Source of the DNA: Faecalibacterium sp. CAG:74
GTDB lineage: Bacteria; Verrucomicrobiota; Kiritimatiellia; RFP12; UBA1067
DNA length: 53,524 bases
NCBI GenBank assembly: GCA_963588415.1
Contig: CAVAHB010000061.1
Coordinates: 1-53,524, forward strand
Direction of reading: 5' to 3'
The notes beneath the pieces were generated by a model, which ran no database searches, had not been told where the DNA came from, and saw nothing but the letters and a program-made list of their open reading frames with translations. Positions 2,913 through 44,302 of the stretch are shown here, in pieces. The stretch's first letter is position 1. The number at the start of each line of letters is the position of its first letter. Position numbers and translations under genes: made by a program.

Positions 2913-11834
<8,922 letters not shown>

Positions 11835-27544: not shown

Positions 27545-28270
27545 ATGAACGCGAAACAGATGATTCTCCTGACAACAGTTCTCTCGGTTGCCGCCGTGGT
27601 GGTTGCCGCGCCGACGCGGAAGTCTGCGCGTAATGCGAAGGCGGACGCTTCGGAAGAGGCGGCACCCGTTTCGGGCGTCGATGCGAAGATTACGATCGAC
27701 CAGTTCCCGAAGACGGGACGGGCCTCAACGCTGATGGCTCCGTCCCTGTCGGGAGCTTCCATCATCGGCCAGTGCTATACGAAGCCGCGCAAGTGGATTG
27801 TGCTCGAGTCGAAGTACACGACGTATGCCCGCTGGCAGGATCAACTGACCTTTACCTGGCATGTGCTGCTTGAGACGAAGAGCGCGACGGAGAAGGACAA
27901 GACGGATAAACTCCCCCCCTACTCCTATTTTTCCACGTCCGTCACCTACGCGAACATTCCGAAGGGGTCGCATGCGGCGAGCGTCTGTCTGCATCCCTCC
28001 TACCTTGAGCGGTATGGCGAGCCGAAGGCAATCGGTCTTGTGATTGCGAACAAGGAAGGCACGGTTCTGGCCGGCGACTGCGAGAGTGAAATCAAGGGCA
28101 TCCCGACCCACCCGAAGACGCTTGAGCAGGCCTTCTGGAACAACAACGACATTATGAACGCCACGCAGAACGGCGAGCCGATGATCGAGCGCCGTCAGGG
28201 TCTGCAGGATCGCGCGAAGACGATTTGGTCGATGGTGAATCCGAATGACTACGAAATGGTGGTGCAGTAA
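27545..28270 (+). CDS. Secreted protein (241 aa). This is the first gene of the pilus-like module and is Amuc_1102-like by position and size.
   Basis: Signal peptide MNAKQMILLTTVLSVAAVVVAAP. Its stop overlaps the next start (TAATG at 28268-28272). I could not verify sequence-level homology by eye. Confidence 0.6.
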   Translation: MNAKQMILLTTVLSVAAVVVAAPTRKSARNAKADASEEAAPVSGVDAKITIDQFPKTGRASTLMAPSLSGASIIGQCYTKPRKWIVLESKYTTYARWQDQLTFTWHVLLETKSATEKDKTDKLPPYSYFSTSVTYANIPKGSHAASVCLHPSYLERYGEPKAIGLVIANKEGTVLAGDCESEIKGIPTHPKTLEQAFWNNNDIMNATQNGEPMIERRQGLQDRAKTIWSMVNPNDYEMVVQ

Positions 28271-42560: not shown

Positions 42561-43052
42561 TTACGACCTCGGTTCGTCCGTACTTGCCGCATCCAGCGAC
42601 TTTGCGTATTTATCCAGAACGCCGTTGACTATCTTTCGGGCAACCGGCGCGGAAAACCAGTTCACGATGTCGATTGCCTCGTTGATGACGACGGCTCGCG
42701 GCACATCCGTATACTTCATCTCCCAAATGCCCATACGCAACACAGCCCGTTCAACGGTTCCGAGGCGGTAGAGGTCCCAGTTGTCGAGAATCTTTGCAAG
42801 AATGCTGTCAATCTCATCGAGATTGTGCAAAACCCCGGTGACACGCTCTTCGGCAAAGACCTTGTACTTGGTGGGAATCTTCTTGACCGAATCATCCGCC
42901 AAGTCAAGCGAAGCCACTTGATCCCAGAACTCGGACATGAAGGCCGTCAAGTCCTCCAGAATCTTGCCCTCCGCCGAAAGAGGAGGGTTCAAGTCCGCTG
43001 AAGTCAACATCTGAATCGCCCATTCACGGGCCTGTCTGCGTGTCACCGTCAT
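42561..43052 (-). CDS. nusB: Transcription antitermination factor NusB.
   Basis: RRQAREWAIQMLTS N-terminus and VPRAVVINEAIDI are typical of NusB. SD AAGGTAAGGA lies upstream. Confidence 0.88.
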   Translation of the reverse strand: MTVTRRQAREWAIQMLTSADLNPPLSAEGKILEDLTAFMSEFWDQVASLDLADDSVKKIPTKYKVFAEERVTGVLHNLDEIDSILAKILDNWDLYRLGTVERAVLRMGIWEMKYTDVPRAVVINEAIDIVNWFSAPVARKIVNGVLDKYAKSLDAASTDEPRS

Positions 43053-43082: not shown

Positions 43083-43091
43083 ATTATACCA
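43083..43091 (-). promoter_or_regulatory. Extended -10 element TGGTATAAT (minus strand) for nusB-ribD-ribE.
   Basis: The reverse complement of 43081-43094 reads ATATGGTATAATGT. It lies 30 nt upstream of the nusB ATG (43052). Confidence 0.5.
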
Positions 43092-43155
43092 TATTTTGAA
43101 TGCCGAAGTTTCTTGAGTTTGCCCATTTTCAATCGCCTTACATTCCCTTGCGAAC

Positions 43156-43308
43156 TGCACCCGGGTGCAAAGGGTATCTGCACCCGGGTGCAGAGGGTGT
43201 CTACACCCGGGTGCAGAAGGGGTCTACACCCGGGTGCAGAGGGTGTCTACACCCGGGTGCAAAGGGTGTCTGCACCCGGGTGCAGAAGGGGTCTACACCC
43301 GGGTGCAG
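43156..43308. repeat. Tandem array of seven 23-bp units, each carrying the perfect palindrome CACCCGGGTG.
   Basis: The palindrome core starts at 43158, 43181, 43204, 43227, 43250, 43273 and 43296. Units are CACCCGGGTGCA(A/G)A(G/A)GG(G/T)(T/G)(A/G)TCT(G/A). The palindrome extends to the 14-bp TGCACCCGGGTGCA in copies 1, 2 and 6. Confidence 0.97.
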
Positions 43309-43395
43309 TCCGCCGCGCTTCGGAAGGGGCGGAAGCGGCACTCCTCGGCGGGCGAAGTTTTCACGGCAGAAGGATGCCACGCATTCGCCGTTTTG

Positions 43396-43404
43396 TGGTA
43401 TAAT
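43396..43404 (+). promoter_or_regulatory. Extended -10 element TGGTATAAT upstream of queD.
   Basis: TGGTATAAT at 43396-43404 ends 7 nt before ATG 43412. No SD is present. Confidence 0.55.
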
Positions 43405-43411
43405 AACTCGC

Positions 43412-44302
43412 ATGATTACCGTCACAAAGACCGTGAAGTTCGACGCTGCGCACATCCTCACCAATCATCGGGGGCTGTGCAAGAACCTACACGGGCATAC
43501 TTACCGCGTCGCCGTCTCAGTCACCCAGTCCGAAGGGCGCAAAGGGGACATGGTCATTGACTTCAAAGATCTCAAAACCATCGCCGAAGAGTTGATTTGC
43601 GCACGTTTTGACCACGCCTTCATCTTCAATGCGACATCCGAGGGCGAACGCGAGATTGCTGCGGTCGTTGAGAAGCACGGCATGCGCACGGTGTCCCTGC
43701 CGTTTCGGTCGACGGCGGAGAACCTCGCGGCGTATTTCTACGGCGAACTCCGCAAGCGGATTCCCGAAGTCTCGGCCGTGAAGGTCTGGGAGACCGAGGC
43801 GAGTTGCGCCGAATATCACGAGACGCGGTGTGTTCTGCCGTCATCGCCGTTTCTGAAGGGGCGGATAGCCGATTCGGCTCTCCGGGAGGGGTTGCATCCT
43901 CACTTTGCGAAGGCGTTCGCGTTTCTGCGCCGGCCGGATCTCGCGGCGCTTCCCGTCGGACGACACGAAATTGACGGGGACGACTGCTGGGCGACCGTGA
44001 GCGAAGTTGACCTGATGCCGTTCGGCGCGAGCCAGAGGACGGAGGTCCACAAGGCCTTCATCGACATCCAGTCTCCGCTCGACGGGCCGGAGACATACGG
44101 ACTGCTCGACCTCGCGGGGCGTGAACTCGGCCCGTTTGACACGGAGAAGGATGTCGCCCTTGGCCAGGAATCGACGCGGCCGCTGACGCTCGTGCCGGGC
44201 GAGTATGCGATTTTCATGCCGGGGAGCGGTGCGCATGCGCCCTGCCTGACGCTGGGCGAACCGACGCGGCGAAAGAAACTCGTCATCAAGATTCGTGCGT
44301 AA
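43412..44302 (+). CDS. queD: Fusion protein: 6-carboxy-5,6,7,8-tetrahydropterin synthase (QueD/PTPS) N-terminal domain plus a YhcH/YjgK/YiaL (DUF386) C-terminal domain.
   Basis: N-terminal domain: FDAAHIL...LCKNLHGHTYRV (C-x3-HGH) and VWETEASCAEY. C-terminal domain: GRHEIDGDDCWATVSE...EVHKAFIDIQSPLDGPE...GEYAIFMPGSGAHAPC...KLVIKI, as in YhcH-family cupins. The tracked ORF start (43100) runs through the tandem repeat and is rejected. Confidence 0.8.
   Translation: MITVTKTVKFDAAHILTNHRGLCKNLHGHTYRVAVSVTQSEGRKGDMVIDFKDLKTIAEELICARFDHAFIFNATSEGEREIAAVVEKHGMRTVSLPFRSTAENLAAYFYGELRKRIPEVSAVKVWETEASCAEYHETRCVLPSSPFLKGRIADSALREGLHPHFAKAFAFLRRPDLAALPVGRHEIDGDDCWATVSEVDLMPFGASQRTEVHKAFIDIQSPLDGPETYGLLDLAGRELGPFDTEKDVALGQESTRPLTLVPGEYAIFMPGSGAHAPCLTLGEPTRRKKLVIKIRA

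What the first reader, a model, noticed from the sequence alone, without database searches (positions are those of the whole stretch)
43156..43308. Seven-copy 23-bp tandem array of perfect palindromes (CACCCGGGTG) between the divergent nusB and queD promoters
The 10-bp palindrome recurs at an exact 23-bp period. It extends to the 14-bp TGCACCCGGGTGCA in three copies. The 13-nt inter-palindrome segments fall into three variants arranged A-B-C-B-A-C.

The array sits about 45 bp upstream of the nusB -35 region and about 90 bp upstream of the queD -10. That is where a shared upstream regulatory element of two divergent operons would be. One operon covers antitermination and riboflavin; the other covers queuosine and related genes.

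Such regular arrays of dyad-symmetric sites suggest cooperative binding of a dimeric DNA-binding protein or a nucleoid-structuring/cruciform element. Alternatively it is a VNTR-type minisatellite whose copy number varies between strains. Each unit also contains a SmaI/XmaI-type CCCGGG site.
Basis: seen in the sequence. Interest (0 to 1): 0.62.

Follow-up and report, generated by a model that had tools for sequence, protein, structure and literature searches.

The report
Dispersed mobile-element relic with 23-bp minisatellite
The seven-copy palindrome array between nusB and queD is real, but it is one of at least 18 copies of a species-specific, transposon-derived intergenic repeat and not a dedicated control element; its palindrome and exact 23-bp spacing also occur in many gut Bacteroides genomes.

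Summary
Observation confirmed: seven CACCCGGGTG cores lie at an exact 23-bp period at 43158-43305.

Interpretation largely refuted. The array is not locus-specific. The same genome (a 2.3-Mb MAG) holds at least 18 such arrays of 2 to 12 units, all intergenic, and seven of them break contigs.

Each array sits between a conserved "leader" (…CCCTTCCGAAGCGCGGCGGACTG) and "tail" (CAGTTCGTAAGGGAAGGTGAGGCGATTGAAAATGGGCAAAC…). The outer ends of these arms carry the 20-bp terminal inverted repeat (CTGGAGTTTACCCATTTTTT) of a 1.5-1.7-kb DDE-transposase insertion sequence found in congeners.

Arms and array are absent from 60 same-genus genomes, from 400 genomes of the phylum and from the nusB promoters of the closest relatives.

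This is a MITE-like element with an internal minisatellite. It has the architecture of BrickBuilt of Porphyromonas gingivalis (23-nt repeats, leader, tail, IS-type ends, 19 copies) but is unrelated in sequence.

The element abuts the nusB promoter: its end lies 23 bp upstream of the -10 box, so side effects on expression are possible but untested.

Unexpectedly, 23-bp-phased A[C/G]ACCCGGGT[G/C]T arrays with unconserved spacers are abundant in Bacteroides and Parabacteroides. A shared protein or structural reader is therefore not excluded.

The parts
43158..43305 (.). Minisatellite: seven CACCCGGGTG cores at an exact 23-bp period. Family unit in the 'forward' orientation: CACCCGGGTG[T/C]AGACACCCTCTG. 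The window copy is in reverse orientation. With a C at unit position 11 the dyad extends to the 18-bp palindrome TCTGCACCCGGGTGCAGA.
43112..43157 (-). 'Tail' (B-arm) of the element. Read outward on the minus strand it is CAGTTCGCAAGGGAATGTAAGGCGATTGAAAATGGGCAAACTCAAG. It is conserved at 12 of the 14 arrays whose tail side is assembled.
   Evidence: C61:43112-43169 matches the consensus tail at 93%
43112..43131 (-). Terminal-inverted-repeat-like end, CTTGAGTTTGCCCATTTTCA. It is 16/20 identical to the TIR CTGGAGTTTACCCATTTTTT of the DDE-transposase IS of congeners, and it faces the nusB promoter.
43306..43362 (+). 'Leader' (A-arm): CAGTCCGCCGCGCTTCGGAAGGGGCGGAAGCGGCACTCCTCGGCGGGCGAAGTTTTC. It is truncated and lacks the terminal ~25 nt with the TIR that the C89, C71 and C131 copies keep.
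   Evidence: C61:43293-43362 matches at 96%
43083..43091 (-). nusB extended -10 box (TGGTATAAT). Homology with relatives ends at 43097/98. The element's end at 43112 lies 23 bp upstream of the hexamer.
43396..43404 (+). queD extended -10 box (TGGTATAAT). The ATG at 43412 follows the hexamer after 7 nt, so the mRNA is probably leaderless (inferred).
42561..43052 (-). nusB coding sequence (flanking gene, not part of the element).
43412..44302 (+). queD fused to a YhcH-like domain (flanking gene, not part of the element).

Best explanation
The array is the internal minisatellite of a non-autonomous, MITE-like interspersed element that expanded within this one species.

A full element reads: IS-type terminal inverted repeat, ~80-nt leader, (23-bp unit)n, ~45-nt tail, inverted copy of the same terminal repeat. 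The window copy keeps the tail end but has lost the leader end.

Shown here:
- There are at least 18 copies.
- All copies are intergenic.
- The arms are conserved.
- The terminal repeat is identical to the ends of a DDE-transposase insertion sequence in congeners.
- The element is absent from relatives, including at the nusB locus.

Inferred:
- The elements were spread in trans by that transposase, which is not in this assembly.
- Unit number changes by replication slippage or unequal recombination. The self-complementary 18-bp dyad would favour this, because neighbouring units can pair with one another.
- The position between nusB and queD reflects where such insertions land or are tolerated, namely just upstream of -10 boxes, and not a function specific to these genes.

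Because the element replaces everything upstream of about -37 of the nusB promoter, it may incidentally alter nusB or queD expression. This is untested.
For: Dispersal:
- 93 strand-wise matches to CACCCGGGTGCA on 20 contigs, against 0 for the control pattern.
- 18 arrays, always period 23, seven of them at contig ends.

Arms:
- Conserved leader and tail.
- C140 carries the leader without any array.

Terminal repeat:
- In congeners the arm-end motif flanks, in inverted orientation, 438-461-aa PF01609 transposase genes in 1.5-1.7-kb units. It also flanks shorter 392-bp and ~480-bp transposase-less units and piles up at contig ends.

Restriction to this species:
- The two-unit pattern is absent from 24 same-genus and 16 same-order genomes.
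- It is absent from all 185,579 species representatives and from JGI metagenome contigs.
- The relaxed pattern occurs in 1 of 400 other genomes of the phylum, as a single pair.
- Only the 20-25-nt terminal repeat matches in 60 congeners.

nusB locus:
- Relatives' homology stops at 43097/98.

Closest described analogue:
- BrickBuilt has the same build and the same 23-nt period.

Structure and RNA families:
- The single-stranded fold of the element is -79 kcal/mol, z = -8.2.
- No Rfam family matches.
Against: - No transposase of this or the Y1 type is present in the MAG. Current mobility is therefore unsupported, although a 91%-complete MAG in 210 contigs may simply have lost IS copies.
- No clear target-site duplication was found.
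- Many copies lack one arm, and the leader occurs in three classes that share only its last ~23 nt. The history is mosaic, and the array plus short junctions might move or arise independently of the IS-type ends.
- Plain minisatellite drift does not explain the cross-phylum recurrence of the same 12-bp palindrome at the same 23-bp phase with unconserved spacers.
Confidence: 0.72

Rival explanations
1. Phased docking platform. The dyad RCACCCGGGTGY (Bacteroidales consensus A[C/G]ACCCGGGT[G/C]T), repeated every 23 bp (about two helical turns), is bound cooperatively by an unidentified dimeric DNA-binding or nucleoid-associated protein. The MITE is only the vehicle that spreads the sites. This reading can coexist with the best explanation.
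For: - In 106 Bacteroidales arrays (379 units) the 12-mer is conserved, the remaining 11 positions carry less than 0.13 bit, and the length is invariant at 23 bp.
- With gaps of 5-35 allowed, every listed neighbouring pair in the four Bacteroidales-type genomes searched had N15.
- The position next to the core varies between C and G independently on the two sides (Watson-Crick 0.54 against 0.52 expected). This fits half-site degeneracy better than a hairpin stem.
- Within the phylum the motif occurs in this species only, which suggests acquisition together with a reader.
Against: - No candidate protein was identified.
- In this genome the spacers are as conserved as the dyad, as expected for a young minisatellite.
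- Arrays lie in every type of intergenic region in Bacteroidales, including 24 convergent ones.
- Positions -4 to -6 and +4 to +6 covary without sequence conservation, which points to nucleic-acid pairing.
Confidence: 0.17
2. Structured nucleic-acid element of the REP/BIME type. The tandem hairpins act in RNA or in single-stranded DNA, for example as transcript stabilisers, insulators or terminator-like blocks, or as recombination or transposition substrates.
For: - Strong predicted folding (z = -8.2 as DNA; -4.9 and -7.1 as RNA for three units).
- In Bacteroidales, dyad-flanking positions covary (Watson-Crick 0.60, 0.64 and 0.45 against 0.28 expected).
- G:T and A:C mismatches segregate by array (p = 0.002).
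- Bacteroides sp. 51 copies are closed by an outer stem that varies but stays complementary.
Against: - The G:T excess shows no relation to the direction of flanking genes (28 against 27 and 51 against 47 in tandem contexts).
- A single unit folds no better than shuffles.
- No Y1/RAYT transposase is present.
- Units are head-to-tail and not alternating as in BIMEs.
- No Rfam match.
- In this genome no array lies in a convergent gap, where 3'-end elements are expected.
Confidence: 0.08
3. Dedicated bidirectional regulatory element of nusB-ribD-ribE and queD.
For: It lies between two divergent extended -10 promoters.
Against: - 17 other arrays sit next to unrelated genes.
- The array is absent from the orthologous nusB promoters, and nusB-queD adjacency is not conserved.
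Confidence: 0.02
4. Assembly artefact.
For: Seven family members end contigs, so the repeat does confuse the assembler.
Against: The window copy is internal to a 53-kb contig and has unique, locus-specific flanks and unit variants.
Confidence: 0.01

Closest known systems
BrickBuilt MITE/minisatellite of Porphyromonas gingivalis (Klein et al. 2015, PMC4596501)
   Same: - Tandem 23-nt repeats without spacers.
- Distinct leader and tail.
- Short terminal inverted repeats matching a DDE IS family.
- About 19 copies, all intergenic, with many copies lacking one arm.
- Species-restricted, predicted long stem-loops, no Rfam match.
   Different: - No sequence similarity. BrickBuilt's unit AGACCATAGTATCCTCTCATATG is not a long dyad.
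- Different phylum.
- Its IS partner is present in the same genome, whereas here it was found only in congeners.
- BrickBuilt's promoter activity was measured; ours was not.
BOX elements of Streptococcus pneumoniae (boxA-(boxB)n-boxC); from my own knowledge
   Same: Modular interspersed element with a variable number of internal tandem units between two different end modules. It is intergenic and often near promoters.
   Different: The boxB unit is about 45 bp and is not a perfect palindrome. There is no link to an IS terminal repeat.
REP/BIME and REPIN elements with RAYT transposases; from my own knowledge
   Same: Dispersed intergenic palindromes. About half of the units have GTAG next to the dyad (GGGTGTAGA).
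   Different: - Units are head-to-tail at a fixed 23-bp period and not in alternating orientation.
- The palindrome is perfect and has no loop.
- No Y1/RAYT gene is present.
23-bp-phased A[C/G]ACCCGGGT[G/C]T arrays of Bacteroides and Parabacteroides (found here; I found no description in Rfam or in the paper library)
   Same: Same core palindrome and exactly the same 23-bp period. They are dispersed and intergenic. In Parabacteroides they are embedded in a conserved element of at least 140 bp.
   Different: - Only 3-6 units per array.
- Spacers are not conserved.
- Flanks are unrelated to ours.
Plasmid iterons and centromere arrays (R6K gamma ori 7 x 22 bp, F sopC); from my own knowledge
   Same: Several tandem units of about 22-23 bp.
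   Different: Those are single loci next to rep or par genes. Here there are 18 chromosomal loci with no such genes.

Membership tests
MITE with internal minisatellite (BrickBuilt type) | Head-to-tail repeats of about 23 nt without unique spacers | tested here: met
MITE with internal minisatellite (BrickBuilt type) | Distinct conserved leader and tail flanking the repeats | tested here: met
MITE with internal minisatellite (BrickBuilt type) | Terminal inverted repeats matching those of an autonomous IS | tested here: met
   The 20-bp TIR flanks PF01609 transposase genes in congeners. The window copy keeps one end, 16/20 identical.
MITE with internal minisatellite (BrickBuilt type) | Autonomous partner in the same genome | tested here: not met
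   No PF01609 hit and no tblastn hit in the MAG. The MAG is 91% complete, so absence is not proven.
MITE with internal minisatellite (BrickBuilt type) | Target-site duplications | tested here: inconclusive
   No consistent direct repeat at IS or MITE ends. The GCGCGGCGG duplication in C71, C131 and C15 can also be read as two abutting elements.
MITE with internal minisatellite (BrickBuilt type) | Multi-copy, strictly intergenic, restricted to one species | tested here: met
BrickBuilt proper (sequence family) | Sequence homology of the unit, leader or tail | tested here: not met
   BrickBuilt's unit is AGACCATAGTATCCTCTCATATG, unrelated to CACCCGGGTGTAGACACCCTCTG. Its leader and tail were not compared.
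REP/BIME (RAYT-associated) | Y1 (RAYT) transposase gene in the genome | tested here: not met
   PF01797 is absent, while the control genomes give hits.
REP/BIME (RAYT-associated) | Imperfect stem-loop units in alternating orientation | tested here: not met
   All units are direct repeats at 23 bp.
Iteron or centromere array | Single locus beside rep or par genes | tested here: not met
   18 loci next to housekeeping genes.
CRISPR array | Unique spacers of at least ~26 bp between repeats | tested here: not met
   The 13-nt inter-core segments are themselves conserved.
Conserved operator array of nusB/queD | Presence at orthologous promoters in relatives | tested here: not met
Any Rfam RNA family | Score at or above the gathering threshold | tested here: not met
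   The only hits are sub-threshold chance matches to mir-975 and SNORA77.

The most novel reading that the evidence does not exclude
The dyad A[C/G]ACCCGGGT[G/C]T, repeated at exactly 23 bp, is the recognition array of a still unidentified protein or hairpin-reading system that is widespread in gut Bacteroidales. One gut Kiritimatiellae species acquired the motif horizontally, and there it was captured by a local MITE and amplified. The nusB-queD array would then be a functional multi-site landing pad and not inert minisatellite DNA.
Probability: 0.15. Interest if true: 0.75.

Novelty: new variant of a known kind. Interest (0 to 1): 0.4.

Why it matters
For this locus the result is deflationary. 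The array says nothing specific about how antitermination, riboflavin or queuosine genes are controlled.

It adds a second clear case, in a different phylum, of the BrickBuilt design: an IS-ended element with a 23-nt minisatellite. Such composite elements are therefore not a Porphyromonas curiosity.

Two points deserve follow-up.

1. Relics of this IS/MITE family sit 8-45 nt upstream of extended -10 boxes in 23 of 40 cases. This suggests promoter-proximal targeting or co-option.
2. The same palindrome and the same exact 23-bp phase occur in hundreds of units across Bacteroides and Parabacteroides, where the spacers are free to vary. That pattern looks like selection on spacing, and it could be tested in genetically tractable Bacteroides strains.

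Tried and rejected
- **Rfam.** Scans of the window region, all 17 other loci and 12 Bacteroidales loci gave only sub-threshold chance hits.
- **Restriction-site avoidance.** CCCGGG is only mildly under-represented (0.56 of expectation). About a quarter of all sites lie in the arrays (83 of 368). This was not informative.
- **Sigma-54 enhancer idea.** One TGGCAC-N5-CTGCT lies downstream of the C10 array. By eye I saw no recurrent -24/-12 motif at the other loci I read, so I dropped the idea without a formal scan.
- **Read support and strain copy number.**
  - The four public runs found hold only 90-95% relatives, whose contigs diverge at 43097/98.
  - Both metagenome-contig scans were empty.
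- **Literature.** Searches for the palindrome and for CCCGGG arrays returned only primers and unrelated papers.
- **Homology of our arms to Bacteroidales array flanks.** None was found.
- **Transcribed-strand test for the G:T bias in Bacteroidales.** It was negative.
- **Relation between this family's leader and the junction of the second array family (TCCATATATGGA) in the same genome.** The similarity is weak (p = 0.009 and 0.15), and I make no claim from it.
- **Caveat on gene context.** It rests on my own crude ORF caller based on GC3 pattern, not on a curated annotation.

Full report
**1.

Window 43158-43305 contains seven exact CACCCGGGTG cores spaced exactly 23 bp apart.
- TRF reports period 23, 6.5 copies and score 233, plus a 69-bp higher-order period.
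- No dinucleotide-preserving shuffle of the window reached the observed count.
- Three units extend to TGCACCCGGGTGCA.
- The 13-nt inter-core segments follow A-B-C-B-A'-C, where A and A' differ by one base.

The array lies between two divergent extended -10 promoters.
- nusB: TGGTATAAT on the minus strand at 43083-43091.
- queD: hexamer at 43399-43404. The ATG at 43412 follows after 7 nt, so the mRNA is probably leaderless (inferred).

**2. The array is not unique to this locus**

The window is contig C61 of a 2.30-Mb MAG (210 contigs, 62% G+C, 91% complete).
- CACCCGGGTGCA matches 93 times on 20 contigs; the reversed control pattern matches 0 times.
- The cores cluster into 18 arrays of 2 to 12 units, always at period 23.
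- Seven arrays lie at contig ends, so the repeat breaks the assembly and the true number is probably higher.
- The family unit is CACCCGGGTG[T/C]AGACACCCTCTG.
- With C at position 11 the dyad becomes the 18-bp perfect palindrome TCTGCACCCGGGTGCAGA, joined to the next by CACCC.
- As single strands, neighbouring units pair with one another. The whole window element folds at -79 kcal/mol, z = -8.2. A single unit is no better than shuffles.
- By my own crude ORF calls, all arrays are intergenic. Of the ten loci with both neighbours resolved, four are divergent, six tandem and none convergent.

**3. The arrays have conserved arms**

On one side lies a 'leader' that ends …CCCTTCCGAAGCGCGGCGGACTG.
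- This last ~23 nt is present at 13 of the 15 arrays whose leader side is assembled.
- Further out, three leader classes exist.

On the other side lies a 'tail', CAGTTCGTAAGGGAAGGTGAGGCGATTGAAAATGGGCAAAC…, present at 12 of the 14 arrays whose tail side is assembled.

The window copy is in reverse orientation.
- Tail, 43112-43157, towards nusB.
- Leader, 43306-43362, towards queD. It is truncated before its outer end.

One locus (C140) has the leader with no array, continuing into a different repeat.

**4. The arm ends are the ends of an insertion sequence**

The outward-facing motif GAAAAATGGGTAAACTCCAG closes both arms in complete copies (C89, C71, C131). It is genus-wide.
- It is found in most of the 24 same-genus genomes searched, 25-26 times in G007 and G015, and often 35-70 bp from contig ends.
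- In G015, G013 and G009 two copies in inverted orientation bracket 1.5-1.7-kb units that encode a 438-461-aa protein with a PF01609 DDE transposase domain.
- Shorter transposase-less units exist with the same perfect 20-bp ends: 392 bp in G016 and ~480 bp in G018.
- The window's tail end CTTGAGTTTGCCCATTTTCA matches the TIR at 16 of 20 positions.
- The MAG itself has no PF01609 or Y1 transposase.
- I found no clear target-site duplication.

**5. Arms and array are specific to this species**

- The two-unit pattern is absent from 24 same-genus and 16 same-order genomes.
- It is absent from 185,579 species representatives and from JGI metagenome contigs.
- A consensus leader-one unit-tail query matches 60 congeners only over the 20-25-nt terminal repeat.
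- At nusB, the closest relatives (82% and 79% NusB identity) share the promoter only up to about 10 bp upstream of the -10 box, then diverge. They have no array and a different neighbour.
- Contigs of 90-95% relatives in public runs break off at the same point, 43097/98.

The element therefore arrived, or arose, after the split from these relatives. It is not a conserved control region.

**6. Relation to promoters**

- Of 40 TIR-like motifs (up to 4 mismatches) in the MAG, 23 have TGnTAnnnT 8-45 nt outside the end.
- The same test gives 2 of 41 reading inward and 3% in random intergenic 60-mers.
- The intervening sequence is neither conserved nor of fixed length.
- I read this as insertion or retention just upstream of -10 boxes. 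Extended -10 promoters tolerate loss of the -35 region.
- At nusB the element's end lies 23 bp upstream of the -10 hexamer. The A-rich GATTGAAAATGGGC of the tail then occupies the position of an UP element. Any effect on expression is inference only.

**7. Comparison with what is known**

Earlier notes of this scan pointed to BrickBuilt of Porphyromonas gingivalis. The paper (PMC4596501) describes the following:
- a 23-nt tandem repeat without spacers;
- a distinct leader and tail;
- IS5-type terminal repeats;
- 19 copies, strictly intergenic, many with only one arm or none;
- restriction to one species, predicted long stem-loops and no Rfam match.

That is the architecture found here. BrickBuilt's unit is unrelated in sequence, so this is an analogue and not a member of that sequence family.

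Other families were tested and not met:
- REP/BIME fails on the RAYT gene and on unit orientation.
- Iterons and centromere arrays fail on locus number and neighbouring genes.
- CRISPR fails on spacers.

**8. An unexpected sister phenomenon**

- Nearly all are in Bacteroides and Parabacteroides, including B. xylanisolvens XB1A, B. finegoldii, B. ovatus and B. thetaiotaomicron MAGs, and Bacteroides sp. 51.
- With gaps of 5-35 allowed, every listed neighbouring pair in the four Bacteroidales-type genomes searched had N15. There were 117 pairs in Bacteroides sp. 51, 60 in a Parabacteroides MAG and 18 in XB1A.

Across 379 units in 106 arrays:
- the 12-mer A[C/G]ACCCGGGT[G/C]T is conserved;
- the other 11 positions carry less than 0.13 bit;
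- the length never changes.

Further details:
- Positions -4 to -6 and +4 to +6 covary (Watson-Crick 0.60, 0.64 and 0.45 against 0.28 expected). The C/G position next to the core does not.
- G:T and A:C mismatches segregate by array (p = 0.002), but without relation to gene direction.
- Parabacteroides copies lie inside a conserved element of at least 140 bp.
- Bacteroides sp. 51 copies are closed by a variable but complementary outer stem.
- No Rfam family covers them, and their flanks are unrelated to ours.
- Among 400 other genomes of the window's phylum, only one shows the motif, as a single pair that is probably chance.

The shared palindrome and phase may be coincidence among many two-turn repeat families, horizontal acquisition, or a common reader. 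I cannot decide between these.

**9. Verdict**

- Observation: confirmed.
- Interpretation: the 'dispersed REP-like / VNTR' alternative is right, and the 'shared regulatory element of nusB and queD' reading is not.
- Most likely mechanism: an IS-ended non-autonomous element whose internal palindromic 23-mer expands by slippage (confidence about 0.7).
- The taxonomic label 'gut Kiritimatiellae' comes from earlier unchecked notes of this scan. I did not verify it.

Noticed in passing
Genome-contig loci L053-L166 (for example L061 5446-5540, B. xylanisolvens XB1A; L079, Bacteroides sp. 51; L062, Parabacteroides MAG): Hundreds of 23-bp-phased A[C/G]ACCCGGGT[G/C]T units lie in dispersed arrays of 3-6 units across Bacteroides and Parabacteroides. 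Their spacers are unconserved but of invariant length, and the dyad flanks covary. No Rfam family covers them. One copy lies on a 42-kb viral contig (L190).
   Followed up: partly
relatives: L167 473-2198 (G015:C45), L168 (G013:C132), L169 404-1980 (G009:C79); shorter transposase-less units L170, L171: A genus-wide 1.5-1.7-kb insertion sequence has perfect 20-bp ends CTGGAGTTTACCCATTTTTT and a 438-461-aa PF01609 transposase. It was not found in the window's own MAG.
   Followed up: yes
own genome, 40 sites (for example C13:12924, C36:231, C16, C172); window 43112-43131: Relics of that IS/MITE end sit 8-45 nt upstream of extended -10 boxes (TGnTAnnnT) in 23 of 40 cases, against 3% background. 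Many of these promoters share the form TGGTATAAT-AYGCGC.
   Followed up: partly
own genome, 24 sites (for example C150:18516, C44, C109, C127:~28190-28209); many at contig ends: A second minisatellite family has a TCCATATATGGA core and a 22-23-bp period. It always ends in the invariant junction ATATGGGCTCGGCGGTCGGACAGGAAGGGTTCGCCGCGCCGAAAGG. That junction resembles this family's leader only weakly.
   Followed up: partly
own genome C140:1800-2000, C71:~360-440, C131:~6800-6900, C15, C65, C127, C150, C33, C58: Another dispersed module reads GCGCGGCGGTTTTCAGG…GATTGACAGG…TATAAT-like…TAGTACTAAGGAGTACGGGAAAGCCCC. It contains a promoter-like pair of boxes followed by a conserved small hairpin. It often abuts the tail of the array element.
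   Followed up: no
window 43396-43414 and 43412-44302: The queD ATG lies 7 nt after the -10 hexamer, so the mRNA is probably leaderless. QueD is fused in frame to a YhcH/DUF386-like domain.
   Followed up: no
L025 (G042:C4), ~150-270 bp upstream of nusB: The closest relative has a different repeat at the same place: three copies of GCGCAAAATCTGC about 36-38 bp apart.
   Followed up: no
own genome, whole: The palindromes ACGCGT (0.13 of expectation), GGTACC (0.17), CCGCGG (0.20), GGCGCC (0.26) and CTAG-containing hexamers are strongly under-represented. This may be the footprint of restriction systems.
   Followed up: no
own genome C22:21543-21575: A two-unit copy of the family lies 194 bp upstream of the putative dnaA start, between mnmG and dnaA. 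This is in the likely origin region.
   Followed up: no
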